From an uncultured Aminicenantes bacterium (GTDB lineage Bacteria; Acidobacteriota; Aminicenantia; UBA2199), in assembly GCA_965195285.1 (NCBI GenBank), contig CBDAFS010000039.1, positions 17,022 to 81,021 of the forward strand: DNA of 64,000 nucleotides. Direction: 5' to 3'. Made by a program: the position numbers and the translations under genes. Below the pieces are notes generated by a model. That model was not told the DNA's origin. It saw only the letters and a list, made by a program, of their open reading frames with translations, and searched no databases. Shown here one piece after another: positions 3,256-63,403 of this stretch (position 1 is its first letter; every line of letters starts with the position of its first letter).

Positions 3256-3373
3256 CGTCACTATTTTAGCAAATAGCCCGATTTTTATCAATTCCAAAGC
3301 TATCGGTTTCCATTCCTGAAACAATCAAAAACCCGGCTTTGCCTATACCGGGCCAAATTGGTATAATCACATC

Positions 3374-13966: not shown

Positions 13967-14057
13967 TTATGATATATCAATATCACTCAACAATTTCATT
14001 CATTCCTTAAATTAATAGACAATAACCAGAAATCATTTTAATTTTCGAGTAGTCTTA

Positions 14058-15117: not shown

Positions 15118-15146
<29 letters not shown>
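14058..15146 (-). CDS. Glycosyltransferase family 2
   Basis: VTVLMPVYNCESFLKEAINSILEQTFTDFEFIIINDGSTD and MDADD. 362 aa. Confidence 0.8.
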
Positions 15147-16985
<1,839 letters not shown>

Positions 16986-16986
<1 letters not shown>

Positions 16987-18833
16987 TAACTTTCCTTTTG
17001 TATAAGTTTTTTATCTTTTTTTCTTTTCTCCAAATACCATTCAAAAATTGGAGTATCAACTTGATTTATACTTCTATTAATATCACTATCACCACAAACA
17101 CCGTTAGGATACATACACTTACCTTTTTTTATATCTTCAAACAACTTTTGGGGAATATTTTCCCATATTTTATCAAAATTCTCTTTCTTTACATTACCCA
17201 TCTTCCGATCTTCACTTAATTTAAAATTACAGGGATAAACATCCCCGTTGGGAGCTAAATGGAAAAAAGTCTTACATGCATGGCATGGCATAATGCGTTT
17301 ATTTATTATTGAATCATAAAGATAACATGACTTAATATTTCCTTTATACTTTAAGAAATCTCCATGAACATCTTTAGTAAATTTAATTTTGTCAATACCA
17401 GTATAGCGTTCTAAAATAGGTATTAATTCAGAATTATTTTGAAAAACTAAATCTTCTTCTGTTGTACTAAAACGATCATTCATTACAGTCCAACATATAT
17501 GAACACCTAATCCTTTACTTTTGGCAAAATCTTGGACCCAATCGAAATACTCAACATTATCTCTAAGAAATGTAAAGCTAAAATCAACATTTGAAGAAAA
17601 TTCTTTCAATAATTCTGCCGTCCTTACAGTATTTTCAAAACTGCCATTTATACCCCTACTTTTATCATGTATTTTTTTAGGACCATTTAAACTTACACCA
17701 ATCAATGCCCATTTTAGATTGGGAGCAAGTGACTTTATTTTTTTAAAAAAATTATATGTCCTATCAGGATCATAGCCATTGGTCGTAATGCTAAACTTTG
17801 CTTTCTTTAATTTTTTATGAAGCGCTATCACTATTTCAGGAAAATCATTCCTCAATATTGGTTCTCCACCACTAAGAATCACTTCATTAACATCTTTTAA
17901 TAATTTATTATTTGTCAATTTATCTATATCATCAGAAGTAAGCTCCTCTTTTGGTAAGGTTTTATTCTTCCATATATTACAAGAAACGCATTTAAAATTA
18001 CACCGCCATGTCATTGTGTACCTAATACAAGTTATTGCGTCAAGCTTACTATCCTTAATTCTATCTTTTTGAAAAATTCTTTTTAATAACCTTTTTAATT
18101 TCTTCATTTTTGATACTATATTTTTCTGATTTTTTTTATTACCAATATCCTTTTCAAGAACACCCATCAAAATTGTGTGCCTGTTGTTCAGACAATCCTT
18201 TATCAGCACCTTTTCTCTCCAGTAAAAACCATATTTATTCATTAATTTTGAAATGCTAATAACATTAACTTTGTAGGGGTGCGCACTATCAGCATTTCTT
18301 TTCACTACCTTCCAAGAGGTGCCTGTATCCCCAATGTTTATCATAAACCACAATTCTCCGTCAGTTTTAAGAATATTAAAAATGGTATTGGTGGCAAGTT
18401 CGATATCTGAAACATGATCCAATACATTCCAACAGATAACAACATCAGCTTTAATATCAGTTTTATAGGTTTCTATTTCACTACAAATATATTTAACATT
18501 ATCATTAGAAAGATCCCACATTTTTTTATATTCATCTATAAGTGGATCTATTCCGATTGCAGTTGTATTGTTCAAATGGGAAATTACTGCGGTAGGTCCA
18601 CAACCAACCTCAATCACAACCTTATTTTTTAGGTCACTAATACTGCGATTTATATACATAAGACAGTATTTTCTGAAATAAATATTTGCAATTCTCCATT
18701 CATCAGGAGAGAATCCCTTCCATTCATTTTCCCTTATATTTGACCAAAAATCTAATTCTTCGATTTGTTTGGGTTTTAAACTACTTACATCCAATTCATC
18801 TCTAATTGTTTTTTGTTGCGATTTCTTCAGCAT
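16986..18833 (-). CDS. Methyltransferase / radical SAM (SPASM-type) fusion protein
   Basis: N-terminal VVIEVGCGPTAVISHL (SAM MTase fold). Then RCNFKCVSCNIW (CxxxCxxC radical-SAM cluster) and ILSGGEPIL. C-terminal Cys-rich SPASM-like segments (CHACKTFFHLAPNGDVYPCNF; KCMYPNGVCGD). 615 aa. Confidence 0.7.
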
Positions 18834-18868
18834 ACTTACCTCTTATTATTTTTTTGCTATCACAATAA

Positions 18869-20059
18869 TTATTTTACCTCATATAAAACCTTTAAAAAAT
18901 TTTTCCCTCTTGAATGGTCAATCCCTTTAAATTCTACAGGAATTCTCCACCAAAATAAATATCCAACTCTATTTTTGGACCATATTGCAATAATTATTTT
19001 CGTCATAGAATTATTGATTTGAATATTTTTTATTTCTATTTTTAAAGTATGTTTGCCTTTTTCTAAATTTATTTTTTTATTATATGCTTTATTAGTTGCC
19101 AGAAAATAAAGTGATCTCTCATTCCCACTGTAAATCCCAGTATCAATGTCTACATCCTCATAATCTATCCGAGATTTATATTTCATAGATATCGAAAAGG
19201 AATCGCCAGGGTATAATATTCTCTTGTCTATTTCGACATCAAAAAAGTTAATTTTTTCATTACCGCTACAAATTTTTTCTATACCTAAATCCCCTTTGCT
19301 AATAAATAAATTAGTATATTCCTTAATACCGTCTTCAACACGGTTAAAATATTTAGCCTTGCCATTGTTAAAAAAAATAACCTTTTCTGTAAAAGTTGAA
19401 ATTATGTGCATATTATGGGAGACTAATATAGCTGTTGTTCCATTTTTTTTGAGTTCGCCGATTTTATTGAAACATTTAATTTGAAACCCTTCATCCCCCA
19501 CCGCCAGCACCTCATCCACCAGCAGTATGTCTGGCTTGCAATGCACAGCCACAGCAAACCCCAGCCTCACAAACATCCCGCTTGAGTAAAACTTCACAGG
19601 CGTATCCAGAAAACCACCAATATCTGCGAACTCAACAATATCATCAAATTTTTTGTCCACCTCTTTTTTTGTCATTCCAAGAATTGCAGCATTTACATAA
19701 ATATTCTCTCTTCCAGTTAGCATGGGATGAAAACCAGCTCCTACTTCTATTAAAGCACCAACTCTTCCCTTAATGGTAATTTTGCCCTTGTCAGGCCAGA
19801 AAATTCCATTCAACATTTTTAACAGAGTTGTTTTACCGGAACCGTTCGGGCCAATAATCCCAAGCACTTCCCCCTTTTTTAATTCAAAAGAGACCTTTTT
19901 AACTGCCCAGAACTCATTTTTCCTTAAACTCTCGGGATGAGAACTCAAGCCTAAAATGTTCCTACCTATATCGGCTATGCCGTAAAGCATAGATCGTTTT
20001 AACGATTTACAATATTTTTTTGCCACATTCTCAACATTTACAGCCAAAATGTTATTCAT
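18869..20059 (-). CDS. wzt: Polysaccharide ABC exporter ATP-binding protein (Wzt/KpsT/TagH-like) with extended C-terminal putative carbohydrate-binding domain
   Basis: Walker A GIIGPNGSGKTT. Signature YSSGMFVRLGFAVA. Walker B ILLVDEVLAVGD. An extra ~150-aa C-terminal domain as in Wzt proteins. Confidence 0.8.
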   Translation of the reverse strand: MNNILAVNVENVAKKYCKSLKRSMLYGIADIGRNILGLSSHPESLRKNEFWAVKKVSFELKKGEVLGIIGPNGSGKTTLLKMLNGIFWPDKGKITIKGRVGALIEVGAGFHPMLTGRENIYVNAAILGMTKKEVDKKFDDIVEFADIGGFLDTPVKFYSSGMFVRLGFAVAVHCKPDILLVDEVLAVGDEGFQIKCFNKIGELKKNGTTAILVSHNMHIISTFTEKVIFFNNGKAKYFNRVEDGIKEYTNLFISKGDLGIEKICSGNEKINFFDVEIDKRILYPGDSFSISMKYKSRIDYEDVDIDTGIYSGNERSLYFLATNKAYNKKINLEKGKHTLKIEIKNIQINNSMTKIIIAIWSKNRVGYLFWWRIPVEFKGIDHSRGKNFLKVLYEVK

Positions 20060-20060
20060 C

Positions 20061-20909
20061 TTAAATTCTCTCTGCTACCCTGGTTTCGGTCAGGTGAAAA
20101 ACAAATAAGCAAAAAATAAAAACAAAAAAAGAAATAATAACGGAAACCCAAAAACCTGGCCATTCCTTCGAGTATCCGGTTAATATAAGATCCCTTGGCA
20201 CTGAAACAAGATAAAATAATGGATTATATTTTGTTATTTGAGCCAGAATCCCGGTGGTTGGCTTTGGATATAAGATGGGTGTTAAAAACATAAAAAACGT
20301 CATTAATATTGAAATAATATTTCCAATATCTCTCAAAATACCATTCAAAATTGATAGAATAAAACCAAGGCCAAGGGTTAAGATAAAGACTGGGAGTATA
20401 AGAATCGGAAATAAACATATGGCTGCATGTGGGGAATAACCATAAAATAAAAAAAGAATTCCTGCCAGAACAAATTGAATAAGGAAAGATACCAGTGATT
20501 GACCTATTGAAGCAATTACCAGTGATTTTTTTGAAAAGTTTATTTTTACAATCATCGATCCGGCCTTCACCAATGAATTTGAACCTGCAATAAGTCCTGA
20601 GGCAAACACCTGCCATATAGCAATTCCTAACACCGCAAAAATAGGATAGGGTACATCAATTTTCCCAAGGTTGAATATACCAGACCGATTAAGCATAATA
20701 AAAGTTCCTACACTAATAAGAGGAATTACAAAAGCCCATAAAACCCCGATAAATGATTGTTTATATATGCCCAGGAAATCTCTTTTAAAAAGTTGATAGA
20801 TTAACCAACGGCTTAGTTTTATTTCAGAAACAATCTCTTTAAAAATACAAAAATACCCATTCTTTAAAATATTGTCAGGTTCATATGTCTTTAATTTATT
20901 ATTATTCAT
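20061..20909 (-). CDS. wzm: ABC-2 type polysaccharide exporter permease (Wzm-like)
   Basis: 282 aa, 6 predicted TM segments. Immediately upstream of the Wzt NBD gene. Confidence 0.75.
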   Translation of the reverse strand: MNNNKLKTYEPDNILKNGYFCIFKEIVSEIKLSRWLIYQLFKRDFLGIYKQSFIGVLWAFVIPLISVGTFIMLNRSGIFNLGKIDVPYPIFAVLGIAIWQVFASGLIAGSNSLVKAGSMIVKINFSKKSLVIASIGQSLVSFLIQFVLAGILFLFYGYSPHAAICLFPILILPVFILTLGLGFILSILNGILRDIGNIISILMTFFMFLTPILYPKPTTGILAQITKYNPLFYLVSVPRDLILTGYSKEWPGFWVSVIISFFVFIFCLFVFHLTETRVAERI

Positions 20910-20965
20910 TAAATTTTAAACTTAGCTTTATATAAATACAGGTTTGTAAAAAAAATATAATCATT

Positions 20966-21916
20966 TTATTTTACTCTACTTTTTAACATAAAAAAATCAA
21001 CTAGATTTGTTATTGCACACTGTCCCATTGCCTCTATGGCTTCTTCAGTATGCCCTCCTATATGAGGAGTACAAATAAGATTTTCTGATTCCAAAAACTC
21101 TTTGTCTTCTGGAGGTTCCATTTCATAAACATCAATGGCTGAGCCAGCAATAATTCCATTTTTTAAAGCCCATTTTAAATCATCCTGTATTACAATTTCT
21201 CCTCGAGCAGTATTTATTAAAAAAGCCGATTTTTTCATTGTTTTCAACATGTTTTTATTAACCATATTTCTAGTTAGCTCTGTCAAGGGAGTATGTATTG
21301 TCACTATATCAGCTCTACTAAATATCTGTTCTTTAGAATATTCAATTAATCCTTTCTCTTTGTAATAATTATCTTGGTTTATGATATCATTCACTAATAT
21401 TTTGCATTTAAAATATTTTAATAACTCCACAATATCCTTCCCAATATTGCCAACCCCAATAATTCCGATTGTTTTCCCGGTCAACTCGTGACCACCCTTC
21501 CGGTTCCACCGCCCTTCTCTGAGCTCATCCGATGCCTGATAAAAATCTCTCATGAGGCAAATCATGAATCCCAGGGTAAGCTCGGCAACTGACCTCCGGT
21601 TAACACCCTTGGAAAACAAAACATCTACTCCATAATCTCGACAGGCCCGAAAATCAATATTATCCAGTCCGACTCCGTATTTTGATAAGACTTTTATTTT
21701 AGAAGAATTCCGTAATATATTTTCATCTATTCTCTCACGTCCAATGATTGAACCATCCAAATCCTGTAAAAAATCGATTAAATCATTTTTATCCAGCGGG
21801 TATTTGGTTTTATTTAATCTGATCTCGGCAAAATCATGTTTTTCAATTGCTTTTACCAGAAATGGATTCTGGGTAAAAGCAAAAGGTGTGATCCCAATTC
21901 TAATTTTATTTATCAT
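20966..21916 (-). CDS. D-isomer-specific 2-hydroxyacid dehydrogenase family protein
   Basis: NAD-binding GIIGVGNIGKDI. Catalytic-region motifs (NTARG, HIGG). 316 aa. AT-rich. Confidence 0.75.
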   Translation of the reverse strand: MINKIRIGITPFAFTQNPFLVKAIEKHDFAEIRLNKTKYPLDKNDLIDFLQDLDGSIIGRERIDENILRNSSKIKVLSKYGVGLDNIDFRACRDYGVDVLFSKGVNRRSVAELTLGFMICLMRDFYQASDELREGRWNRKGGHELTGKTIGIIGVGNIGKDIVELLKYFKCKILVNDIINQDNYYKEKGLIEYSKEQIFSRADIVTIHTPLTELTRNMVNKNMLKTMKKSAFLINTARGEIVIQDDLKWALKNGIIAGSAIDVYEMEPPEDKEFLESENLICTPHIGGHTEEAIEAMGQCAITNLVDFFMLKSRVK

Positions 21917-22056
21917 TTAAACAATAAGCTACCGCCGCTGATAGTTTGCATACCTACAAATAATATCACGATAGCATCAATAATAAATCACTTTCAATAT
22001 AGCATATCTGGTTTTTTTTTCAAGAGACTGGTTCAGTGGGAAACAGGCTCGGCAGG

Positions 22057-38589: not shown

Positions 38590-39294
38590 CTATTGATGTT
38601 TCAATTGCAGGGCCTCTATTTCCGAAACCGAAATGTTGTTCTGCAGGCAATCCATACACTGATAGTATTTATCAAATCCATCCCGGTATCTGGGCCTGAA
38701 TTTATGGAAAGTGTCCTGTCGGCAATGGCTGCAATAGACCCTGTAACCACTCTTTTTCCAGCCAGGATCATCGATAATTCCTCGCTTGGACACACACCAG
38801 TCCCACACCACCCTGCAAGCCCGGCAATCCGAAAGGGCCCGGTGTTGTCCGCCCAGTTCTTCAATTTTTCTTCCGGTTGCCACATTAAAGGCTTTGGAGA
38901 GTGGAAACCTTTTGCTGGAAAAAAAACCTTCCAGTTCTTCATATATATAAATGAATTCCTTCATGCAGCAAATGACATCCGCTTGGGCCCAGATATCTTC
39001 AGGGAAAAATCGGACATCAAATTCAGCATTGTAAATAATGAGTTTGCCAACAGACTGAAAAATGGCCCGTATGTCTCCCATTACATCCTCCAACAATGGG
39101 GCATCGTTGACCATATCCTCATGAATCCCGTGGATACCAATTACCCGCTCCGGTATTGGTTTCCGGGGATTTATTAGGGTGTTTATTAAAACCGTATCTG
39201 AATGATCAATGATTGCCAGTTCAACAATCTTATCTGCAGGAGGATGTAAACCGGTTGTTTCCGTATCCAGAAAAACAGTCAATTTCTTGCTCAT
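38590..39294 (-). CDS. DEDDh 3'-5' exonuclease (DnaQ/epsilon-like) with C-terminal Cys4 zinc-ribbon
   Basis: Exo motifs FLDTETTGL, YNAEFD, HRALSD. C-terminal YCSHCRQD...YQCMDC. Confidence 0.7.
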   Translation of the reverse strand: MSKKLTVFLDTETTGLHPPADKIVELAIIDHSDTVLINTLINPRKPIPERVIGIHGIHEDMVNDAPLLEDVMGDIRAIFQSVGKLIIYNAEFDVRFFPEDIWAQADVICCMKEFIYIYEELEGFFSSKRFPLSKAFNVATGRKIEELGGQHRALSDCRACRVVWDWCVSKRGIIDDPGWKKSGYRVYCSHCRQDTFHKFRPRYRDGFDKYYQCMDCLQNNISVSEIEALQLKHQ

Positions 39295-39394: not shown

Positions 39395-41284
39395 TCAGGT
39401 GAGCAATACCTGCAAGTTGATATTCTTCATCTCCAGAATTCCTGAACCAATCAGTATCTCCGGATGCGAATGAATTTCCATTTTTCCTTTAAATTTGCCT
39501 CTTATTTTTTGTCTTGAAATCAGGTATACATGATTGATATTCAAGGTTAACTTGAATCGGGTATAGATTTCCCTCATTTGAGCACCCAGGCTTCGCAGGT
39601 TATTGGATCTGACTTCCAGTAAATATACCTGATAATAAGGAGGCAATGAAAACCACTTTCTGTATTTCAGCTCCCTTAGAAAAAACGCACTCTCCTGTTC
39701 AATCAACTTCAAGGCATAATGAAAATGAAATGTTGAAAAGACATGAATTACACCGGCATGCTTAACCAGTTCCTTCAATTCCGAAACCATTGAAAAAATC
39801 ATTTCACCGGTATTGTATTCATTCATGTTGAAAACCGATTCTGGTCGATGGTAAACCATGGAATCAAAAAGATTTTTAAAAAATGGATTCACCAGTACGG
39901 GAGTGGCAATAACGATCCGGTTTTTCTCAATCCGATCAAGAACAGAGTTAACATCCTTCATGTCCTCGGCAGTAAGCGATAAAACACCTTTTTCAGAAAT
40001 CTTTTTTCTAACGATTTCTTTCATACTGGCAATACTCGGATCCTTTACTTCCATCAATTCATCTGTACATACAGAACATTTTCGAAAATGTTCTTGGTTT
40101 AAATTACAGCGGGTACAGTTGATATTAAATTCATGTCTTACGGTTAGAATTCCTCCGCAGGATGGACACTTCTGGATTTTTTTGCATTTTTGACAATACA
40201 GAAAAATAGATGATTTTTTTTTATTTATAATAATCAGTATTTTTTCATTCTCCATAAAACGGTTTTTCAACCATTCGATCAATGGGTCAGGTATTCCTTT
40301 CTCCTTCCGGGGAATAGAACTGACCTCAACCTTAATACCTTTGTCTATCCTTCTATCTTCAATTTTAATCTCCGCCTGTTTCGAAAAAACCCTTGAGGTA
40401 AAGGTTGAAAATCCCTCGATCAACGGAATTTCATATTTATCGGAACGGATCCGGGCGATATGATTGAGGTTAAAATCCGTGTAATGGCTTTTTTGATGGG
40501 TAAACGATCCTGCTCTTTCGGAAATCACACAACCCAGATTTTCAATGGGAAGCATTATTGCTGATAATCCCCCTATCAAAACACCAGATTCACCATTGGC
40601 ATATCGATACCATATTTGCTCTCTCCGGGAGATCGGTACCTGAGAATAATACAAATCCGAATCCCGGATGTTCTTTATCCAAAACTCGGCTGTCCAGCGA
40701 TCCGGGACCGTGATCAATACAGACTGATCTTTTCTTTTGTAGAAATCGATTATTTCACTATACACATCGAGTCGATCATATGAGATCACAAATCGGTTTT
40801 TAACTCTAGATTCCGGTACTGAAACCTGCTGAGGACTCCCGGGTAGTTCGGAGTACTCATGTTTATAGAAAAAGCGAATGGGTTTTTCCTTTGAAAGCTG
40901 CTCGGCTTCCAATAGACTCAGGTGTTTGAAATTTTTAATTTCATTTTCCTTCTTATAAAACAGGTTCTGAGTTGATTTCTGTCGGGGAGAAAGTGAATAA
41001 TCCAGTATCAAGCCTTGCGAAGAAAAATATGAATCCGATACGGTGCTGGCAAAAGTAAAGTAGGTATCGGAAACAGGATTCTCATCGATAACTCCAACAA
41101 CCTTTTTTACTTTCCCAGAATACCCAGATTCATTTTTGACCACCCAACCGGTGATCAGGCGTTTGCCAAAGGGAATCACAATCCGCTTCCCGGGTCCGAT
41201 ATCATTGGCGTTTCCTAAAAATTCATAGGTGAATTGTTCAAAAATATTTATGGAGAGCGATACCTGAATCCGCATTACACTCAT
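39395..41284 (-). CDS. PriA-like primosomal protein N' homologue with degenerate helicase motifs
   Basis: N-terminal 3'-DNA-binding-like domain (KRIVIPFGKRLITGWVV). PriA-type Cys-rich zinc region (CQKCKK..CPSCGG..H..CTRC..CSVC). The Walker A position lacks G-x4-GKT. The Walker B/DEEH position reads ISERAG. Confidence 0.55.
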   Translation of the reverse strand: MSVMRIQVSLSINIFEQFTYEFLGNANDIGPGKRIVIPFGKRLITGWVVKNESGYSGKVKKVVGVIDENPVSDTYFTFASTVSDSYFSSQGLILDYSLSPRQKSTQNLFYKKENEIKNFKHLSLLEAEQLSKEKPIRFFYKHEYSELPGSPQQVSVPESRVKNRFVISYDRLDVYSEIIDFYKRKDQSVLITVPDRWTAEFWIKNIRDSDLYYSQVPISRREQIWYRYANGESGVLIGGLSAIMLPIENLGCVISERAGSFTHQKSHYTDFNLNHIARIRSDKYEIPLIEGFSTFTSRVFSKQAEIKIEDRRIDKGIKVEVSSIPRKEKGIPDPLIEWLKNRFMENEKILIIINKKKSSIFLYCQKCKKIQKCPSCGGILTVRHEFNINCTRCNLNQEHFRKCSVCTDELMEVKDPSIASMKEIVRKKISEKGVLSLTAEDMKDVNSVLDRIEKNRIVIATPVLVNPFFKNLFDSMVYHRPESVFNMNEYNTGEMIFSMVSELKELVKHAGVIHVFSTFHFHYALKLIEQESAFFLRELKYRKWFSLPPYYQVYLLEVRSNNLRSLGAQMREIYTRFKLTLNINHVYLISRQKIRGKFKGKMEIHSHPEILIGSGILEMKNINLQVLLT

Positions 41285-41967
41285 GAACCGGATGCTTCTT
41301 TAACGATAGACAGTACTTTTTGCATATCTTCCCATACATTCCATTTGACTTTTGAAATTTCTGACTGTAGTCTCTGACGTAGGATATAGGAAGGATGGAA
41401 AGTCGGAATAACCGGAACCCCATTGAATTCAAAACACTGTCCCCGAACTCTGGAAATGGAATACTGGCCACCCAGAAGATTTTCCAAAGCAACTTTCCCC
41501 AAACATACCAATACCTTTGGATTTAATACTTCAATCTGTCGCTTTAAATACGGCAGGCAGGCATCCACTTCATCTTTCATGGGATTTCTATTGTTGGGAG
41601 GCCTGCACTTAAGGATGTTTCCGATAAATACCTGCCCCCGGTCATATCCCATTTTTTTCAACACTTTATCCAACAACTGCCCGGCCTTGCCAATAAAGGG
41701 CCGTCCAAATCTGTCCTCTGTCTCCCCCGGACCTTCTCCGATAAAAAAAATATCTGGCGACAAAGAGCCTTCTCCGGGGACATAATGAAGTTTGGTTTTA
41801 TGTAAAGGACACTTGGTGCACTGTTTGATTTCATTATGGATTTCATTTATAAGCAGGCCCGGATCATCGGCCTGAACTTCTAAAAATTCAACTCCGATTT
41901 CTCGATAGAATTCCAAAACTTCTTTCAATTGGTCCTGTACATTCGGATGAATATGTAATTCTTTCAC
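41281..41967 (-). CDS. Uracil-DNA glycosylase family 4 (Fe-S type)
   Basis: GEGPGETEDRFGRPFIGKAGQLL and the HPS motif (TFHPSYILR). N-terminal CTKCPLHKT Fe-S cysteines. Confidence 0.8.
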   Translation of the reverse strand: MKELHIHPNVQDQLKEVLEFYREIGVEFLEVQADDPGLLINEIHNEIKQCTKCPLHKTKLHYVPGEGSLSPDIFFIGEGPGETEDRFGRPFIGKAGQLLDKVLKKMGYDRGQVFIGNILKCRPPNNRNPMKDEVDACLPYLKRQIEVLNPKVLVCLGKVALENLLGGQYSISRVRGQCFEFNGVPVIPTFHPSYILRQRLQSEISKVKWNVWEDMQKVLSIVKEASGS

Positions 41968-42623
41968 TGCTCAACCCTGATTTCTTTTGCACCGATTTCA
42001 AATATTTTATCCCAGAGCTTTACTGCAATCTCCGTCTTGCTCATCATCGGGAGTTTTTCAATGTTCACACTGGTCATGAAATAGACCTGATTGGAATCCA
42101 CATTAAAAGCCGGGTTTTTTTCAGATATCTGGTTTAGAACCAGGAGGTCCAGCTTCTTCCGCTTAAATTTACTTCTTGCTTGGGAAAATATGTTTTCGGT
42201 CTCCGCAGCAAATCCGATCAATATTTGATTTTTTTGCTTTCGCTTTCCCGCCTCAAGAAGTATATCAGGATTTTTTTTTAGTTCCAATAGCATTTTTTCA
42301 GTCTTCTTCTTTATTTTCCGGGAACGATATCGGAGGGGCCGATAGTCACTGACTGCCGCAGCCATGATGATCACCTCAGCGTCTTTTAAATTTTCAAGTA
42401 CTTTGGATCTCATTTCCGAGGTAGTCTCTATCTGAATACACCTGCACCCTTCGGGCAGCAAATGAGTAGGTCCGGTGATAAAAACGATTTCTTCGATATT
42501 TCTCTTGATGGCTTCACTGGCGATATAAAATCCTGTTTTCCCCGATGATCGATTTGAAATATATCGAATGGGATCAATCGGCTCAATCGTTGGCCCGGAA
42601 GTTATCAGTACTTTTTTAAACAC
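41964..42623 (-). CDS. coaB: Phosphopantothenate--cysteine ligase (CoaB), separate ORF with GTG start
   Basis: VLITSGPTIEPIDPIRYISNRSSGKTG matches the CoaB dinucleotide-binding motif. Starts at a GTG that overlaps the coaC stop (GTGTTTAA). Confidence 0.75.
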   Translation of the reverse strand: MFKKVLITSGPTIEPIDPIRYISNRSSGKTGFYIASEAIKRNIEEIVFITGPTHLLPEGCRCIQIETTSEMRSKVLENLKDAEVIIMAAAVSDYRPLRYRSRKIKKKTEKMLLELKKNPDILLEAGKRKQKNQILIGFAAETENIFSQARSKFKRKKLDLLVLNQISEKNPAFNVDSNQVYFMTSVNIEKLPMMSKTEIAVKLWDKIFEIGAKEIRVEQ

Positions 42624-43146
42624 TCAGGATTCCCAGACAGAATTCGTATATTTTTTCAACTTGAGCCAGCCGGCCTCTTCCCTCTTTTGCGCAGGCCAGT
42701 GAACCCTCATCCGGGTCAATAATCTCAATGCCCCTTGAGCGGATTTTGGCCAGGTTATCTTGGACAGCAATATTATCATACATGAGAGTATTCATGGCAG
42801 GGGCAATGACGACTTTTTTATAAAATGCCAGAAAGGTAGTTGACAGCAAATCATCGGCAATACCATTGGCCATCTTCCCAATAATATTGGCAGTCGCCGG
42901 TGCCACCAGGAGCAATTCATGCTCAGTGCATATATTGATATGAAGCAAAGGATCCTGGCGTTCTCTGAATTGTTCATCATAGACTTTCCCAGGGGTAAAG
43001 GTTTCAAAAGTAAGAGGTGAAATGAATTTTTTTGCGTTTTCTGTAAGGATCACACTGACCGAATGATCATTTTTTTGAAATAACCTTAAAATTTCTACTG
43101 ATTTATATGCACTTATTGATCCGGTTACCCCGAGAATGATATTCAT
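42616..43146 (-). CDS. coaC: Phosphopantothenoylcysteine decarboxylase (CoaC flavoprotein)
   Basis: MNIILGVTGSISAYKSVEI and PAMNTLMY motifs of the HFCD flavoprotein family. Confidence 0.75.
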   Translation of the reverse strand: MNIILGVTGSISAYKSVEILRLFQKNDHSVSVILTENAKKFISPLTFETFTPGKVYDEQFRERQDPLLHINICTEHELLLVAPATANIIGKMANGIADDLLSTTFLAFYKKVVIAPAMNTLMYDNIAVQDNLAKIRSRGIEIIDPDEGSLACAKEGRGRLAQVEKIYEFCLGILSV

Positions 43147-43790
43147 TCTTGCCCCCTTATCATGTTTAAAACAAGGTCTTTTTTAAAATCCGATCTCTGA
43201 CAAAAAGCCATATAAATACAGTTCAAATCAGAAAAAGCCCTGTCTTTATCATCATTTACAACCAAAAAATCGTACATGACATACTGATCCAGCTCATCCT
43301 TGGCACGGGCCAACCGCTTTTGATTCTCTGAACTAAGGCCTTCACCATGTCTATTGATTAATCTCTTTTCCAGTTCATCCATTGAAGGAGGTACCACAAA
43401 TACATACCAGGCCCCGGGAAATCGTGATTTCAAATTCCTGGCTCCCTGAATATCGATATCCAGAATCAGAATTTCATCCCGTTTTGATTTTGCCTGAATT
43501 TCCCTCCAGCTGGTACCGTAATAATTCATATGAACCTCTGCCCACTCCAGAAACTGATCCCCGTCTATCATTTTTATGAAATCTTCCTTTGTTACAAAAT
43601 AATAATCCTTCCCCTCCTTTTCACCTTTTCTTTTGGATCTGGTGGTATGAGAAACCGAAAATAATAAACCTGGATGCTGTTTCAACAACATCCGAATTAA
43701 AGTTGATTTCCCGGAACCGGAAGGTCCGGAAATCACCATCAAATTATTATTCATTTCCTCACCCGTTTTTAACCTCACCGTATCAACCAC
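43143..43790 (-). CDS. gmk: Guanylate kinase
   Basis: ISGPSGSGKSTL P-loop. Downstream of yicC as in many bacteria. The real start may be the internal MNNNLMVISGPSG. Confidence 0.85.
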   Translation of the reverse strand: MVDTVRLKTGEEMNNNLMVISGPSGSGKSTLIRMLLKQHPGLLFSVSHTTRSKRKGEKEGKDYYFVTKEDFIKMIDGDQFLEWAEVHMNYYGTSWREIQAKSKRDEILILDIDIQGARNLKSRFPGAWYVFVVPPSMDELEKRLINRHGEGLSSENQKRLARAKDELDQYVMYDFLVVNDDKDRAFSDLNCIYMAFCQRSDFKKDLVLNMIRGQE

Positions 43791-44675
43791 TCACTCGACA
43801 TTTTGAATTTGCTGTCTTATTTTCTCAATTTCCCTTCTGATAAGCAATATGTAGTCATGAATCTTCATTGAATTGATTTTGCTGCCAATCGTATAGGTTT
43901 CCCTCTGCATCTCCTGGCAGAGAAAATCCATTTCCCGGCCTTTGGTTCTGATTTTTTTATCTTTACCCAGCTGCAACAACCTTTTGTGATGGGCCTTTAA
44001 ACGGTTGACCTCTTCAACAATGCAACTTCTCTCAGCAGCTATGGCAGCTTCCTGAGCCACTCTTTTTTCATCAATTTCAAATTCATTAAGAAATTTTAGA
44101 ATTTTTTCTTTTAGTTTTATGAAATTTTCGCTCTCCAATTTTAAGGCTTCCCTTTCAACCACTTCAATTATATCTCCAATTTTCATGAGACTGACCTGCA
44201 TATCGTTAAATATGGATTCACCCTCAGAAATCCTGCTTTGCAAAAAACCATTAAAAACCTCACGAGTGGTTTTCATGATCTTCCTGGTTTTTTTATCATC
44301 AACATCATCAAATCGATAATCAAGGTGGAAAATCATGGGAAATCTGAACATGGAATCCAGGGAAAACGTCAATTCACCTTTGTGTTTCCGTTGGATACGG
44401 GCAACCTTATCCAATATTTCTTCCAGCAAAACTTCATTGAATTGAATATCCCATTTCTTGGGATTGTATTCGAAAAAATCGAAAACGATTTCAATCTTAC
44501 CCCGACATATCTTTTGCCTGAATAGAGCCTTGATTGATTTCTCAAAATGAGGTGTGATTCCGGTTCCCCTGAAATTCAGGTCCAGGAACCTGTGGTTATA
44601 GGATTTGAATGAAATGAACATAGAGTAATCGATGCCACTGCATCTCCCCTGAGCAAACCCGGTCATACTCTTCAT
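43791..44675 (-). CDS. yicC: YicC-family stress-induced protein
   Basis: N-terminal MKSMTGFA, 294 aa, coiled-coil C-terminus. Conserved yicC-gmk arrangement. Confidence 0.75.
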   Translation of the reverse strand: MKSMTGFAQGRCSGIDYSMFISFKSYNHRFLDLNFRGTGITPHFEKSIKALFRQKICRGKIEIVFDFFEYNPKKWDIQFNEVLLEEILDKVARIQRKHKGELTFSLDSMFRFPMIFHLDYRFDDVDDKKTRKIMKTTREVFNGFLQSRISEGESIFNDMQVSLMKIGDIIEVVEREALKLESENFIKLKEKILKFLNEFEIDEKRVAQEAAIAAERSCIVEEVNRLKAHHKRLLQLGKDKKIRTKGREMDFLCQEMQRETYTIGSKINSMKIHDYILLIRREIEKIRQQIQNVE

Positions 44676-60081: not shown

Positions 60082-61314
60082 ATGTATTACATAGAACTAT
60101 TTTCAGGTGCCGGTGGATTATCCGAAGGTTTCATAAAAGCAGGGTTTAAACCAATAGCCCATATTGAGATGGATAAAAATTCATGTTGTACATTAAAAAC
60201 CAGACATGCTTATCACTATTTAAAAAAAAAGAGGAAACTGGATATATATCAATCCTATTTAAAAAAAGAAATATCACGCGAAGATTTGTATTCAACAATC
60301 CCTGATGATTTAATTGAATCAATTATAGAGACAGAAATTACAGAAAATAATCTAAAACTTATTTTCAATAAAATAAAATATTTTCAAAAAAGTAAAAGTA
60401 TATCAGATATTGATTTAATTATTGGGGGCCCTCCCTGTCAGGCATATTCAACCATTGGAAGAGCAGCAACAAAAAACAAAAAGTCTTTTGACCTTAGAAA
60501 TTATTTGTATCAACTATACGGTCGTTTTTTATTGGAATTCAAACCAAAATTATTCTTATTTGAAAATGTACCGGGTATAAAAACAGCAGGAAATGGTCAG
60601 TATTATTGTAGTTTGAAGGACGAATTCAGAAATTTTGGATATGAAATTGAAGATAGAATGCAAAATGCTGCAGATTATGGCGTCATACAGAGAAGAGAAA
60701 GAGTTATCATAATTGGCTGGCGGAAGGATATACAGTTTAGATATCCTGAATTTGAGAATATTGAGAATAAATGGACGGTTAAGGATATATTATTCGATTT
60801 ACCTGAATTGAAAGCTGGAGAATCAATTAATATTGGAAAGTATATAAGTAAACCATCTGAATATATAAAAATGTTCAATATCCGTAATGGAAGTGATATT
60901 TTGACCCAACATATAGCTAGACCTCATAATAAAAAAGATTTAAGAATTTATAAACTGGCAATTGAAAAGTGGAACAAAAACCATAAGAGAATAATGAATT
61001 TCGAAATTCCAGACAAAATTAGAACCCAGAAAAACATTTCATCATTCCTTGATCGATTTAAAGTTGTATCAAAAGATGATTTATCACATACATTAATAGC
61101 TCATATAGCAAAAGATGGACATCATTATATTCATCCGGATATTGAACAGTTAAGATCTATTAGTATTAGGGAAGCAGCAAGGATCCAATCTTTCGAAGAT
61201 AATTACTATTTTGAAGGCCCAAGAACTTCTATTTTTAATCAAATTGGAAATGCAGTCCCTCCACTCTTGTCCTATGCTATTGCTTCAAAAATAAGGGATA
61301 TTATAAATGTCTAA
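60082..61314 (+). CDS. DNA (cytosine-5)-methyltransferase
   Basis: Motif I ELFSGAGGL. Motif IV GGPPCQAYS. Motif VI LFENVPG. Motif X QIGNAVPP. Variable TRD in between. 410 aa. Confidence 0.85.
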   Translation: MYYIELFSGAGGLSEGFIKAGFKPIAHIEMDKNSCCTLKTRHAYHYLKKKRKLDIYQSYLKKEISREDLYSTIPDDLIESIIETEITENNLKLIFNKIKYFQKSKSISDIDLIIGGPPCQAYSTIGRAATKNKKSFDLRNYLYQLYGRFLLEFKPKLFLFENVPGIKTAGNGQYYCSLKDEFRNFGYEIEDRMQNAADYGVIQRRERVIIIGWRKDIQFRYPEFENIENKWTVKDILFDLPELKAGESINIGKYISKPSEYIKMFNIRNGSDILTQHIARPHNKKDLRIYKLAIEKWNKNHKRIMNFEIPDKIRTQKNISSFLDRFKVVSKDDLSHTLIAHIAKDGHHYIHPDIEQLRSISIREAARIQSFEDNYYFEGPRTSIFNQIGNAVPPLLSYAIASKIRDIINV

Positions 61315-63403
61315 AGAGCTAGCTTTTAAGCCCAAGGCAAGATTATTGTTACAATTAGGTGAACAACTAATCCGTAATGAAAGCATAGCACTTATGGAAA
61401 TTATCAAAAATTCATATGATGCTGATGCCTCTAAAGTATCAATATCCATGAAAAATGTTGATGACACAAAAAAAGGTGAAATAATCATTGAAGATAATGG
61501 TATCGGAATGGATGAAAGAATTATAGAAGATGTATGGATGCAACCAGGAAGTAATTATAAATCATCATTATTTGAAAAAAGAGTTAGAACCGTAAAATAT
61601 AAAAGATTACCAATAGGAGAAAAGGGAATTGGAAGATTTGGGGTACACCGTCTGGGTCAGGAAATTGAGATAATCAGCAAGAAAGAAGGTAAAAATGAAG
61701 TTTATTTAAAAATTAATTGGAGTAAATTTGAGAAAGATGACTTTTTGTCAAATATAAAAGTAAATTTATTTGAAAGACTACCTCAATATTTTCTTAAGGG
61801 AAATACAGGTACTAAAATAATAATTAATAAACTACGAAAATCCTGGAGTCGTATTGAAGTGAGAGAATTATATAGATCAATAAACACTTTGAATTCCCCT
61901 TTTAAATCATATGACTCTTTCGAAGTTGACTTTTCAATTGATAAAAAGAAATGGTTAGAAGGACTTCTTTCATTTGATGATATAAAAAAATATGCCCTTT
62001 ATTATTCCATAGCCTCTATTGAAGGAAATGAAATCAAAGATTTCAAGTATGAATTCCGTCCCTGGGATACAATGGTAAAACTAAATGAAAGGAAAGTTGA
62101 AGATAAGCATATCAGGATGGTAAAAAAGATTTATGATGAAGAAAAAAGAAAAAATGTTTATGTTGATATTGATCTAAATAAATCTAAAATAGGAAAGATA
62201 AGTTTTGAGATTTTAATTTTCGATAGGGAAAGAAGAATATTATCTTTAGGAGTTACCGATAGAAAAGGATTTGATGAATACCTAAATGAAAATGGTGGTA
62301 TAAGGGTTTTCAGGGATGGAATTAGAATATATGATTATGGTGAAAAAAGTAATGATTGGCTTGACCTTGACATAAAAAGAGTTAATCGACCCGGGGAAAC
62401 AATTAGTAATAATCTTGTTATGGGTGCAGTCTATCTTGATCGAGAAAGTAGTACTGATTTAGTTGAAAAAACAAATAGAGAAGGTTTCATTGAAAATAAT
62501 GCGCTATCTGAATTTATATTGGCTATTGATTTTGCTTTAAACAATATTTTGACATATAGAAGTATTGATAAAAATAAAGTCAGAACAATATATAGTAATA
62601 TTGATACAAATGAACCTGTTACTGAAAATTTGCGAGAACTGAAGAACAAAATAGAAAAAAATATTGAAAAAGGGGAATTTAAAAAGGAACTATTAAAAAC
62701 AATAAAAAACATTGATAAAGATTACAAATATATAAAAGAGATTTATGTAAAAAGCGCTAGTGCTGGTTTAAGTCTTAGTATTGTCATCCACGAAGTTGAA
62801 AAAATTTTAGCAGAATTGGTAAAAATAGTAGAAGCAACAGGATCAAGAGAAAGAATAAAATTTCTAGTAAACCACCTCGATAAAATTGTTAATGATTATG
62901 CAACCATAATTAAACAAAGCAAAAAGGAAAAAAGTAATCTAAAATCTCTCATCGATCAATCTCTTTTCAATTTAACCTATAGGATTAAGGCACATAATCT
63001 GAACGTAATCAGATCTTACGAAAAATATAAAGAAAATCCAGTTGTTACATGCGCACAAAATTTGGTAATAAGCGTAATCATGAATATCATTGATAATTCA
63101 ATCTTCTGGATAAATTATGCAAATAGACAAGTAAAAAAACTATATATCACATTAACCGATGAAATACCGGAACATACTTCAATATTAATTGCAGATAATG
63201 GTCCGGGATTTCATATTTCTCCAGAAGACGCAATAAAGCCCTTTATAACGGAAAAACCAGGAGGTATGGGGCTAGGATTACATCTCGCAGATGAAGTTAT
63301 GAATGCACAGGGCGGAAAACTATTATTTCCTGAAAAATTTGATTTCAAGCTACCAGTAGACCTTCAAAATGGTGCAAAAATTTTACTAGCTTTTAAAAAT
63401 TAA
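61307..63403 (+). CDS. Dual-GHKL ATPase protein: N-terminal MutL/MORC-like Bergerat domain plus C-terminal histidine-kinase-like ATPase domain
   Basis: N-terminal EIIKNSYDADA / IEDNGIGMD / GEKGIGRFG. C-terminal NIIDNSIFW / IADNGPGF / GGMGLGLHLADEV. Possible H-box SIVIHEVEKIL before the C-terminal domain. Start overlaps the MTase stop (ATGTCTAA). Confidence 0.65.
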   Translation: MSKELAFKPKARLLLQLGEQLIRNESIALMEIIKNSYDADASKVSISMKNVDDTKKGEIIIEDNGIGMDERIIEDVWMQPGSNYKSSLFEKRVRTVKYKRLPIGEKGIGRFGVHRLGQEIEIISKKEGKNEVYLKINWSKFEKDDFLSNIKVNLFERLPQYFLKGNTGTKIIINKLRKSWSRIEVRELYRSINTLNSPFKSYDSFEVDFSIDKKKWLEGLLSFDDIKKYALYYSIASIEGNEIKDFKYEFRPWDTMVKLNERKVEDKHIRMVKKIYDEEKRKNVYVDIDLNKSKIGKISFEILIFDRERRILSLGVTDRKGFDEYLNENGGIRVFRDGIRIYDYGEKSNDWLDLDIKRVNRPGETISNNLVMGAVYLDRESSTDLVEKTNREGFIENNALSEFILAIDFALNNILTYRSIDKNKVRTIYSNIDTNEPVTENLRELKNKIEKNIEKGEFKKELLKTIKNIDKDYKYIKEIYVKSASAGLSLSIVIHEVEKILAELVKIVEATGSRERIKFLVNHLDKIVNDYATIIKQSKKEKSNLKSLIDQSLFNLTYRIKAHNLNVIRSYEKYKENPVVTCAQNLVISVIMNIIDNSIFWINYANRQVKKLYITLTDEIPEHTSILIADNGPGFHISPEDAIKPFITEKPGGMGLGLHLADEVMNAQGGKLLFPEKFDFKLPVDLQNGAKILLAFKN

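What the first reader, a model, noticed from the sequence alone, without database searches (positions are those of the whole stretch)
39395..41284. PriA-like protein with intact 3'-DNA-binding and zinc-ribbon regions but degenerate Walker A/B (helicase-dead) motifs
Domain order and the Cys-rich C4-C4-type region match PriA. However, the G-x4-GKT P-loop is absent (the region reads RLDVYSEIIDFY) and the DEEH box reads SERAG. A helicase-inactive PriA paralogue could be a regulatory or DNA-binding-only factor. Alternatively the lineage may restart replication differently.
Basis: partly seen in the sequence, partly recalled or inferred. Interest (0 to 1): 0.5.

Follow-up and report, generated by a model that had tools for sequence, protein, structure and literature searches.

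The report
Helicase-dead PriA orthologue of Aminicenantes
This gene is the lineage's own copy of the replication-restart protein PriA; it keeps its fold, its DNA-end pocket and its zinc fingers but has lost every ATP-handling motif, a natural "pseudohelicase" like the one already described in Deinococcus.

Summary
ORF 39395-41284 (-) encodes a 629-aa protein with a PriA 3'-DNA-binding domain, a full-length PriA fold (AF2 pLDDT 89; Foldseek E~1e-33 to 8FAK/6DGD/4NL4) and all eight zinc-binding Cys. The ATPase site is gone: Walker A GSGKT reads SYDRL (Ec K230->Arg), DEEH reads ERAG (catalytic Glu->Arg), and both motif VI arginines are lost. These changes are shared by all 34 close relatives and ~30 more 50%-identity clusters; every member with an organism name is Candidatus Aminicenantes or Acidobacteriota. 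dN/dS is 0.17, so it is not a pseudogene. The "paralogue" reading is not supported. The gene sits in the ancestral yicC-gmk-coaBC-(UDG)-priA slot. A complete Aminicenantes genome (CP070825.1) carries a less decayed 716-aa PriA in that same slot, also without GKT or motif VI. The most likely function is ATP-independent recognition of abandoned forks and recruitment of the replicative helicase, as shown for D. radiodurans PriA and E. coli priA300 (K230R). It is therefore a new, more deeply eroded member of a known kind. It scores below TIGR00595's cut-off, and NCBI annotates it as hypothetical. I could not scan a whole genome of this clade for a second priA.

The parts
39395..41284 (-). priA* : 629-aa PriA orthologue, predicted pseudohelicase (whole ORF including stop)
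   Evidence: ORF. PriA_3primeBD and sub-threshold TIGR00595. Full-length PriA fold. dN/dS 0.17 against the 93%-identical relative L001.
40985..41284 (-). 3'-DNA-binding domain (residues 1-100), with the 3'-end pocket residues retained
   Evidence: PF17764 matches residues 7-96. Ec Y18/G37/K61 correspond to Y20/G40/K60, kept in 33/34 family members. Ec D17 is Thr, as in 6/23 canonical PriAs. Residue roles from PMC5778457.
40790..40984 (-). Short winged-helix-position segment plus disordered linker (residues 101-165)
   Evidence: Much shorter than in canonical PriAs in the alignment. In the AF2 model, residues 104-140 form small beta/alpha elements and 145-153 have pLDDT <50. Fold type not established.
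40355..40789 (-). RecA-like lobe 1 with dead motifs I, Ia, Ib, II and III (residues 166-310)
   Evidence: Aligned to PriA lobe 1. dN/dS 0.13.
40739..40792 (-). Former Walker A region FVISYDRLDVYSEIIDFY (residues 165-182); Arg171 stands at Ec K230
   Evidence: 34/34 family members have Arg here and no GK[ST]; 23/23 canonical PriAs have Lys.
40505..40534 (-). Former Walker B region GCVISERAGS (residues 251-260): Ec D320->E256, E321->R257, E322->A258, H323->G259
   Evidence: R257 is invariant in 34/34; position 256 is E in 28 and D in 6.
40199..40354 (-). RecA-like lobe 2, N-terminal part, with motif IV INKKKS (residues 311-362)
   Evidence: Ec R427/R428 (contacts to lagging-strand ssDNA; PMC13594977) stay basic: K/R in 33/34 and K in 32/34.
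40055..40198 (-). Cys-rich region: four CxxC pairs, two predicted Zn sites (residues 363-410)
   Evidence: Eight Cys align to Ec C436/439/445/448/463/466/476/479 and are kept in 33-34/34 family members and 23/23 canonical PriAs.
39725..40054 (-). RecA-like lobe 2, C-terminal part, with dead motif V (ATPVLVNP) and deleted motif VI (SELKELVKH) (residues 411-520)
   Evidence: Ec Q540->Pro in 32/34; R584->Leu in 29/34; R587 falls in a gap in 34/34.
39398..39724 (-). PriA C-terminal domain (residues 521-629) with the conserved R..LPP motif
   Evidence: R542 and P549 are invariant in all 58 aligned PriAs and P548 nearly so. The Foldseek alignment to PriA spans the full length. Pfam PriA_C itself does not score.
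41281..41967 (-). Family-4 uracil-DNA glycosylase, immediately upstream; its stop overlaps the priA* start (ATGA)
   Evidence: PF03167. TIGR00758 197.9 bits against a 125.3 cut-off. 4-nt overlap. UDG-priA adjacency is conserved in L002, L004 and L009.
41964..43146 (-). coaB (41964-42623) and coaC (42616-43146): split coaBC, part of the conserved priA neighbourhood
   Evidence: PF04127 and PF02441. Same order in L002 and L004; fused coaBC in L009 and L005.
43143..44675 (-). gmk (43143-43790) and yicC-like gene (43791-44675): the upstream end of the conserved block
   Evidence: PF00625; PF03755 with PF08340. Same block next to a canonical priA in L005.

Best explanation
This is the orthologous priA (replication-restart initiator) of a clade of Candidatus Aminicenantes, and it has evolved into a pseudohelicase. 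The protein keeps the PriA architecture: 3'BD, two RecA-like lobes, a two-zinc Cys-rich region inserted in lobe 2, and the C-terminal domain. It also keeps the residues that cap the 3' end of the nascent leading strand and the basic motif IV residues that hold lagging-strand ssDNA. It can no longer bind or hydrolyse ATP. There are no P-loop glycines, Arg replaces the Walker A Lys, Arg replaces the catalytic Glu, and both motif VI arginine fingers are gone. Proposed mechanism: it recognises abandoned forks and D-loops by their structure, without ATP. It encloses already single-stranded lagging-strand template with its Cys-rich region. It then serves as the landing platform that brings the replicative helicase DnaB, with the lineage's own loader, back onto the fork. 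It cannot unwind a duplex lagging arm itself. Shown here: homology, fold, motif loss, conservation, purifying selection and orthologous position. Inferred: loss of ATPase activity, from the sequence together with the E. coli K230R and D. radiodurans precedents. Also inferred, by analogy: a retained role in restart and recruitment of DnaB.
For: The motif loss is complete and family-wide: K230->R in 34/34, E321->R in 34/34, R584/R587 lost in 34/34, no GK[ST] in 63/63 full-length family sequences. The fold is retained: pLDDT 89.1, and Foldseek to PriA 8fak/6dgd/4nl4 gives E 7e-34 to 8e-33 with TMq 0.63-0.71. Non-catalytic functional residues are retained: Y18/G37/K61 equivalents in 33/34, eight Cys in 33-34/34, basic motif IV, and R..LPP in the CTD. 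Purifying selection acts on every domain: dN/dS 0.17 overall, 0.13 in lobe 1 and 0.11 in the CRR. The position is orthologous. The window, L002/L003 and L004 all read yicC-gmk-coaC-coaB-UDG-priA*. A canonical priA sits in yicC-remA-gmk-rpoZ-coaBC-priA-def-fmt. The 716-aa PriA of complete genome CP070825.1 sits in ABC-yicC-gmk-coaBC-UDG-priA. The nearest relative outside the family is that Aminicenantes 716-aa type (136 bits against ~68 for canonical PriAs). It too lacks GKT and motif VI in 120/120 sequences, which points to an old loss followed by further erosion. The window holds only one PriA-like locus. Precedents: E. coli priA300 (K230R) has no ATPase or helicase activity yet behaves almost like wild type in vivo and assembles primosomes (PMC5778457). 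D. radiodurans PriA, with the same K->R change, has no ATPase or helicase activity but binds ssDNA, forks and DnaB (PMC4504706). The PriA CRR can enclose a lagging-strand ssDNA gap of 9 nt or more without unwinding (PMC13594977).
Against: No biochemistry exists for this protein. Loss of ATPase activity is inferred from sequence. The whole genome could not be searched, so a second, canonical PriA elsewhere is not excluded. PriA is the fastest-diverging gene of its block: 22% identity to the 716-type orthologue against 31-50% for the six neighbours, and 42-48% against 50-77% within the family. That pattern fits relaxed constraint but would also fit a change of function. The winged-helix region is much reduced, so fork recognition may differ from E. 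coli. The partner proteins (DnaB, a loader, SSB) were not seen in the window.
Confidence: 0.7

Rival explanations
1. One reading: an extra, helicase-dead PriA paralogue that acts as a DNA-binding or regulatory factor, while a canonical PriA encoded elsewhere in the same genome performs restart.
For: Only 64 kb of this genome was available, so a second copy cannot be excluded. Two clearly different PriA types (629 aa and 716 aa) both carry Aminicenantes labels.
Against: The two types occupy the same syntenic slot in different genomes, which is what orthologues do. No 629-type cluster found lies on the 4.43-Mb genome that carries the 716-type, though that test had limited sensitivity. No PriA with an intact P-loop and an Aminicenantes label turned up: all 120 closest relatives of the 716-type lack GKT. 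The slot matches that of a canonical priA in another phylum.
Confidence: 0.1
2. A neofunctionalised orthologue. It still derives from priA, but it no longer initiates restart and has taken on another structure-specific DNA role. One candidate is a function coupled to the co-transcribed family-4 uracil-DNA glycosylase, such as marking or protecting forks that run into base-excision intermediates.
For: The UDG-priA adjacency is conserved in all Aminicenantes loci examined, with a 4-nt overlap in the window and in L009. PriA diverges faster than its neighbours. New family-specific invariant residues (R171, R257, the FSTFHFHY block) show constraint on something other than ATPase chemistry.
Against: The 3'-end pocket, CRR, motif IV basic pair and CTD, which are the restart-relevant parts, are the parts that are conserved. 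Gene adjacency alone does not show functional coupling. The less eroded 716-type in the same operon position still scores as bona fide PriA (TIGR00595 466 bits).
Confidence: 0.12
3. The protein is still an ATPase/helicase that uses a non-canonical nucleotide site, for example the proposed second weak nucleotide site of PriA, or Arg-based phosphate binding.
For: [quoted passage not shown] Both RecA-like lobes are retained and under selection.
Against: Every element that touches ATP or Mg in SF2 helicases is changed at once: the P-loop glycines, Lys and Thr; the catalytic Glu; the motif V Gln; and both motif VI Arg. K230R alone abolishes activity in E. coli.
Confidence: 0.03
4. A decaying pseudogene, or an annotation or assembly artefact.
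For: It scores below the curated PriA threshold, and NCBI names its relatives 'hypothetical protein'.
Against: The reading frame is intact at 629 aa. About 35 full-length 50%-identity clusters exist. dN/dS is 0.17. Fifty-three columns are invariant across 34 sequences. The fold prediction is confident.
Confidence: 0.01

Closest known systems
Deinococcus radiodurans / Deinococcus-Thermus PriA pseudohelicase (Lopper et al. 2015, PMC4504706)
   Same: Both are PriA orthologues with the Walker A Lys replaced by Arg and a degenerate Walker B. The Deinococcus protein is experimentally devoid of ATPase and helicase activity, yet it binds ssDNA, forks and DnaB. This is the same kind of object and the model for the proposed mechanism.
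   Different: The phylum differs (Aminicenantes/Acidobacteriota). Erosion here also removes motif VI, motif V Gln, the motif Ib Arg and most of the winged-helix segment, and it drops the protein below TIGR00595's cut-off. Whether the two losses share ancestry could not be tested, because no Deinococcus sequence was available. There is no biochemistry for this protein.
E. coli PriA K230R (priA300)
   Same: It carries the identical substitution at the Walker A lysine. The mutant lacks ATPase, helicase and translocase activities but supports primosome assembly and near-wild-type growth through the PriA-PriB pathway (PMC5778457).
   Different: It is a single engineered change in an otherwise intact helicase, and it depends on PriB/DnaT, which are proteobacterial proteins not known in this lineage. 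The natural protein has lost many more motifs.
Canonical PriA helicase (E. coli / K. pneumoniae; PDB 4NL4, 6DGD, 8FAK; TIGR00595)
   Same: It has the same domain order and fold, 3'BD pocket residues, eight-Cys CRR and CTD R..LPP motif. A Firmicute-like example shares the gmk-coaBC genomic slot.
   Different: Identity is about 19-22%. Motifs I, II, V and VI are destroyed and the WH region is reduced. The TIGR00595 score is 126 against a 230 cut-off.
716-aa 'primosomal protein N'' of other Candidatus Aminicenantes (e.g. P0276, CP070825.1)
   Same: It is the closest relative outside the family, it occupies the same ABC-yicC-gmk-coaBC-UDG-priA slot, and it also lacks GKT (K230->R) and the motif VI arginines.
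   Different: It keeps a DE-type Walker B, motif V GTQ and a full-length WH region. It is ~30% identical to E. coli PriA and passes TIGR00595 (466 bits), so it is annotated as PriA. It looks like an earlier stage of the same decay.
Actinobacterial PriA (e.g. M. tuberculosis Rv1402), which I recall being flagged in UniProt as lacking detectable helicase domains
   Same: It may be another lineage with a helicase-motif-poor PriA. This rests on memory only and was not tested here.
   Different: The query scores only 20-65 bits against the PRK14873 PriA models, so it is not a member of those subfamilies.

Membership tests
PriA (primosomal protein N' / replication restart protein, TIGR00595) | N-terminal 3'-DNA-binding domain (PF17764) with the 3'-end pocket residues | tested here: met
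   PF17764 E 1.2e-11, 44.7 bits against a 22.7 cut-off. Y20/G40/K60 match Ec Y18/G37/K61.
PriA (primosomal protein N' / replication restart protein, TIGR00595) | Overall PriA architecture and fold (3'BD, two RecA-like lobes, CRR inserted in lobe 2, CTD) | tested here: met
   AF2 pLDDT 89.1. The nine best Foldseek hits are all PriA chains, with E from 7e-34 to 1e-26 and TMq 0.55-0.71.
PriA (primosomal protein N' / replication restart protein, TIGR00595) | Cys-rich region CxxC-Xn-CxxC-Xn-CxxC-Xn-CxxC binding two Zn | tested here: met
   C364/367/373/376/390/393/403/406 align to the eight E. coli Cys. Zinc binding itself was not tested.
PriA (primosomal protein N' / replication restart protein, TIGR00595) | C-terminal domain (PriA_C, PF18074) | tested here: inconclusive
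   The Pfam model does not score. However, R542 and P549 are invariant across all 58 aligned PriAs, P548 is nearly so, and the fold alignment spans the C-terminus.
PriA (primosomal protein N' / replication restart protein, TIGR00595) | SF2 helicase motifs I (GxGKT), II (DEEH) and VI (QxxGRxGR) | tested here: not met
   The motifs read SYDRL, ERAG and ELKEL plus a gap. Pfam DEAD, Helicase_C and ResIII do not score.
PriA (primosomal protein N' / replication restart protein, TIGR00595) | Score above the curated equivalog cut-off | tested here: not met
   TIGR00595 126.3 bits against 230.35. All PRK05580 and PRK14873 models are far below their cut-offs.
PriA (primosomal protein N' / replication restart protein, TIGR00595) | Orthologous genomic position (supportive, not defining) | tested here: met
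   The yicC-gmk-coaBC-priA block is shared with a canonical priA (L005) and with the Aminicenantes 716-type (L009).
PriA (primosomal protein N' / replication restart protein, TIGR00595) | DNA-dependent ATPase and 3'-5' helicase activity | not testable with these tools
   Predicted absent from the motif loss; needs biochemistry.
PriA pseudohelicase (Deinococcus-Thermus type, PMC4504706) | Descends from PriA, with the Walker A Lys replaced by Arg and a degenerate Walker B | tested here: met
   R171 in 34/34 and [ED]-R-A-G in place of DEEH. Definition taken.
PriA pseudohelicase (Deinococcus-Thermus type, PMC4504706) | No ATP hydrolysis and no duplex unwinding in vitro | not testable with these tools
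   Inferred only.
PriA pseudohelicase (Deinococcus-Thermus type, PMC4504706) | Retained binding to ssDNA and forks, and interaction with DnaB | not testable with these tools
   Only indirect support: the 3'BD pocket, motif IV basic residues and CRR are conserved.
PriA pseudohelicase (Deinococcus-Thermus type, PMC4504706) | Common descent with the Deinococcus-Thermus proteins (same loss event) | not tested
   No Deinococcus or Thermus PriA sequence could be obtained with the tools. All named relatives here are Aminicenantes or Acidobacteriota.

The most novel reading that the evidence does not exclude
PriA ATPase activity was lost once, early, in the lineage leading to Aminicenantia (and perhaps neighbouring Acidobacteriota). 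The protein then eroded stepwise under continued selection: the 716-aa type has lost motifs I and VI, and the 629-aa type has additionally lost II, V, Ib and most of the WH region. If so, this is a natural deletion series that defines the minimal ATP-independent restart scaffold. In the most derived form, the two new invariant arginines (R171 at the Walker A Lys position and R257 at the catalytic Glu position), together with E/D256, would occupy the former nucleotide pocket as a built-in lock that fixes the two RecA-like lobes in one conformation. [quoted passage not shown]
Probability: 0.3. Interest if true: 0.55.

Novelty: new member of a known kind. Interest (0 to 1): 0.35.

Why it matters
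The current review literature treats Deinococcus as the single exception to conservation of PriA helicase activity (PMC5778457). These data add a second, uncultivated and environmentally widespread lineage (Aminicenantes/Acidobacteriota) in which the P-loop and arginine fingers are missing from the PriA in the ancestral priA slot. In one clade the erosion is so deep that curated models no longer call the gene PriA. There are three practical consequences. First, genome surveys would wrongly score these MAGs as lacking PriA. Second, the 716-aa relatives are annotated as a "helicase" although they almost certainly are not. Third, the graded series shows which parts of PriA selection keeps once the motor is dispensable: the 3'-end pocket, the zinc-binding region, the basic motif IV pair and the CTD. 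That is useful for separating PriA's scaffold function from its motor function. It does not reveal a new kind of system.

Tried and rejected
- **Pseudogene:** rejected, because dN/dS is 0.17 and ~35 full-length clusters are conserved.
- **Co-resident paralogue:** I reopened this when the 716-aa PriA type turned out to be Aminicenantes too. I rejected it as the best reading once that type was found in the same syntenic slot in a complete genome.
- **Whole-genome search for a second priA:** not possible.
- **Last homology search:** I used it with a broadened family profile (A4), hoping to list all 629-type clusters and see whether any lies on the 4.43-Mb genome. It returned only the same 35 clusters, because the word-index preselection limits its reach, so it is a weak test.
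- **Cluster look-ups for taxonomy:** most entries were unnamed. Only P0068, P0225, P0108/P0346 and P0111 were informative.
- **SSB-pocket residues:** the numbers I recalled from memory (W82/Y86/R697/Q701) did not map onto those residues in the E. coli sequence, so I make no claim about SSB binding.
- **P-loop "deletion":** MAFFT auto mode shows a 3-4-residue gap in the P-loop but L-INS-i aligns it without a gap. I therefore claim only loss of Gly, Lys and Thr, not a deletion.
- **Arg171/Arg257/Glu256 geometry:** could not be checked, because the model coordinates are not exposed.
- **Literature:** searches for PriA with Aminicenantes or Acidobacteria found nothing relevant.
- **Distance tree:** the NJ tree groups nearly all P-loop-less PriAs together. 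Long-branch attraction, and the fact that sequences were sampled by similarity to this family, prevent me from treating a single loss as established.
Full report
**1. What is there.** The ORF at 39395..41284 (minus strand) is real and encodes 629 aa.
- Pfam finds only the PriA 3'-DNA-binding domain (residues 7-96, E 1.2e-11).
- The curated PriA equivalog TIGR00595 aligns to residues 173-584 at E 1.2e-36, but scores 126 bits against a cut-off of 230. All PRK05580/PRK14873 PriA models are far below threshold.
- phmmer against PDB sequences finds only E. coli and K. pneumoniae PriA, at E~1e-14.
- An AlphaFold2 model built on a 58-sequence alignment is confident (pLDDT 89.1, pTM 0.86). Only residues 145-153 are disordered.
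- The nine best Foldseek hits in the PDB are all PriA chains (8fak_H E 6.9e-34, TMq 0.71; also 6dgd, 6dcr, 4nl4, 4nl8). The next family, Mfd, follows at 1e-10.

So the protein is a full-length PriA homologue.

**2. The catalytic motifs.** I aligned the protein and its relatives to E. coli K-12 PriA, taken from NC_000913.3. The comparison set was 34 family members and 23 canonical PriAs.

| Motif (E. coli) | Family | Notes |
|---|---|---|
| I, G227-S-G-K230-T231 | S-Y-D-R171-L | Arg in 34/34, no Gly |
| Ia, VPEIxLTPQ | VPD(N/R)xTA | |
| Ib, GTRSA | GGLSA | |
| II, D320-E321-E322-H323 | E256-R257-A258-G259 | position 256 is E in 28, D in 6; Arg257 in 34/34 |
| III, GSATP | GFSTFT | |
| V, GTQ | ATP | Q540->P in 32/34 |
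| VI, QVAGR584AGR587 | ELKEL plus a gap | R584->Leu in 29/34; R587 absent in 34/34 |

- All 23 canonical PriAs in the same alignment keep K230, D320, E321, R584 and R587.
- Whether the P-loop also carries a short deletion depends on the alignment method, so I do not claim one.

**3. What is kept.**
- The 3'-end pocket residues defined for E. coli (Tyr18, Gly37, Lys61; PMC5778457) are present in 33/34 members. Asp17 is Thr, as in 6/23 canonical PriAs.
- All eight zinc-binding Cys are present (C364/367/373/376/390/393/403/406).
- The motif IV pair R427/R428 contacts lagging-strand ssDNA in the PriA pore (PMC13594977). It stays basic in the family: K/R in 33/34 and K in 32/34.
- In the CTD motif R..LPP, R542 and P549 are invariant across all 58 aligned PriAs and P548 is nearly so.
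- The family also has new invariant positions of its own, including R171, R257 and an FSTFHFHY block.

**4. Not a pseudogene.** Against the 93%-identical relative from MAG DAOVIP010000129 (L001), dN/dS is 0.17 overall. It is 0.13 in former ATPase lobe 1 and 0.11 in the CRR. A profile search of 1.84 billion representative proteins finds roughly 35 full-length 50%-identity clusters of this type, at 440-970 bits. Two outliers follow (P0095, P0096), and everything else scores 227 bits or less. None of the 63 full-length family sequences has GK[ST], a DE Walker B or motif VI.

**5. Which organisms.** Every family member that carries an organism name is "Candidatus Aminicenantes bacterium" or "Acidobacteriota bacterium". 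NCBI calls them "hypothetical protein", consistent with the sub-threshold TIGR00595 score.

**6. Orthologue or paralogue.** In the window the gene order on the minus strand is ABC transporter, yicC, gmk, coaC, coaB, family-4 UDG, priA*, DEDDh exonuclease. The UDG stop overlaps the priA* start in an ATGA.
- The same yicC-gmk-coaC-coaB-UDG-priA* block occurs around relatives that are 48% and 43% identical (L002/L003, L004).
- A canonical priA on a 5.3-Mb contig lies in yicC-remA-gmk-rpoZ-coaBC-priA-def-fmt (L005). The degenerate gene therefore occupies the ancestral priA slot.
- The paralogue question reopened when the best non-family hits, a ~716-aa group, proved to be Aminicenantes as well. 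P0276, P0311, P0317 and P0336 are named "primosomal protein N' [Candidatus Aminicenantes bacterium]".
- P0276, in the complete 4.43-Mb genome CP070825.1, lies in ABC-yicC-gmk-coaBC-UDG-priA with the same 4-nt UDG/priA overlap (L009). The two types are therefore alternative occupants of one locus in different lineages, which makes them orthologues.
- All 120 sequences of the 716-aa type lack GKT (G-PxEKRE, again K230->R) and the motif VI arginines. They keep a DE-type Walker B and motif V GTQ, and they still pass TIGR00595 (407-466 bits).
- The window's protein is closer to this type (136 bits) than to canonical PriAs (~68 bits). The 716-type is ~30% identical to E. coli PriA, against ~19% for the 629-type.
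- Between the window and CP070825.1, the six neighbouring genes are 31-50% identical and PriA is 22% identical. Within the 629-type, neighbours are 50-77% identical and PriA 42-48%.
- The window holds one PriA-like locus only.
- I could not scan a whole 629-type genome. A broadened profile search did not extend beyond the same 35 clusters, none of them on the 4.43-Mb contig.

**7. Wider pattern.** Among the 102 non-family representatives of at least 500 aa nearest to this family, 41 lack GK[ST] and 40 of those also lack motif VI. The two that could be named are Candidatus Aminicenantes (AC-335-G13; its 715-aa cluster co-member P0346 carries the Juan de Fuca composite name) and Acidobacteriota.
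- A bootstrapped neighbour-joining tree (192 sequences, 615 columns) recovers the extended 629-type family in 100/100 replicates.
- It places that family at the tip of a nested series of P-loop-less PriAs that includes all fourteen 716-type representatives. The clade free of canonical PriAs has about 105 members, with a bootstrap mean of 102.
- This fits one old loss followed by progressive erosion. Long-branch attraction and biased sampling keep it a hypothesis.

**8. Mechanism.**
- Established knowledge: E. coli PriA K230R (priA300) has no ATPase, helicase or translocase activity. It still supports primosome assembly and near-normal growth through the PriA-PriB route (PMC5778457).
- Established knowledge: D. 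radiodurans PriA, with the same K->R change and a poor Walker B, has no measurable ATPase or unwinding activity. It binds ssDNA (Kd ~215 nM), forks (~109 nM) and DnaB (PMC4504706).
- Established knowledge: PriA's CRR can swing up and enclose lagging-strand ssDNA when a gap of 9 nt or more already exists (PMC13594977).
- My inference: the Aminicenantes protein is an ATP-independent, structure-specific fork and D-loop recognition scaffold. It uses the 3'BD pocket, the CRR, the basic motif IV pair and the CTD, and it recruits the replicative helicase. It cannot clear a duplex lagging arm itself.
- The loss of ATPase activity is inferred from sequence. The retained restart role is inferred by analogy and from which parts are conserved.

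**9. Comparison and novelty.** The closest known object is the Deinococcus-Thermus PriA pseudohelicase. [quoted passage not shown] I found no paper on PriA in Aminicenantes or Acidobacteria. This is therefore a new lineage and a deeper degree of erosion, but the same kind of thing. I rate it a new member of a known kind, of moderate-to-low interest. Two points are useful in practice. The 629-type is missed by curated PriA models. The 716-type is annotated as a helicase although its P-loop and arginine fingers are gone.

**10. Limits.**
- There is no biochemistry.
- No complete genome of the 629-type clade was examined.
- No Deinococcus sequence was available for comparison.
- Taxonomy rests on a handful of source names.

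Noticed in passing
window 41964-43146 (-); L002, L004, L009: coaBC is split into separate coaC and coaB genes (8-nt overlap) in the window and in the other 629-type loci. It is a single fused 398-aa gene in the 716-type genome CP070825.1 and in the Firmicute-like L005. The split tracks the clade that has the most eroded PriA.
   Followed up: partly
window 41281-41967 (-): A family-4 uracil-DNA glycosylase (TIGR00758, 198 bits against a 125 cut-off) is inserted between coaB and priA*. Its stop overlaps the priA* start (ATGA). UDG-priA adjacency is conserved in all Aminicenantes loci examined, of both PriA types, but is absent next to the canonical priA of L005 and L006.
   Followed up: partly
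window 38590-39294 (-): A 234-aa DEDDh/DnaQ-like 3'-5' exonuclease with a Cys-rich C-terminal tail lies 100 nt downstream of priA* on the same strand. It is conserved in L002/L003 but not in L004 or L009.
   Followed up: partly
P0100-P0205 (representative proteins, not in the window): Of the 102 PriA representatives of at least 500 aa nearest to this family, 41 lack the GK[ST] P-loop and 40 of those also lack motif VI. They fall into several length classes (about 611-823 aa). The few named ones are Aminicenantes or Acidobacteriota. P-loop-less PriAs therefore seem much commoner in metagenomes than the literature suggests.
   Followed up: partly
L009 10001-12151 (P0276) and relatives P0227-P0345: The 716-aa Aminicenantes PriA passes TIGR00595 (466 bits) and is annotated 'primosomal protein N''. 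However, all 120 sequences examined have K230->R, no GKT and no motif VI arginines. It is probably a pseudohelicase that is currently annotated as a helicase.
   Followed up: partly
window ~14000-22000: This is a low-GC island (27-33% GC against ~40% elsewhere). It encodes GT2 glycosyltransferases, a methyltransferase-GT2 fusion, a radical-SAM/SPASM-methyltransferase fusion, an epimerase/dehydratase fragment and an ABC-2 exporter pair. It looks like a horizontally acquired glycan (O-antigen-like) cluster.
   Followed up: partly
window 60082-63403 (+): Within a second low-GC stretch (27-30% GC from ~56 kb), a C5 cytosine DNA methylase (PF00145) overlaps the start of a 698-aa GHKL-ATPase protein. 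That protein is weakly similar to BbrUII/HgiDII-family restriction enzymes (NF050001, 90 bits against a 550 cut-off). The pair is probably a type II restriction-modification system.
   Followed up: partly
window 73-3324 (-): A 1083-aa protein combines an N-terminal Ser/Thr protein kinase domain with C-terminal TPR repeats.
   Followed up: no
L007 1655-3595 (P0036) and P0155: This is another PriA variant from an unnamed lineage. Walker A is lost (NEKR) and motif VI is lost, but an acidic EEEEH Walker B and motif Ib GTRSA are kept. It passes TIGR00595 at 297 bits.
   Followed up: partly
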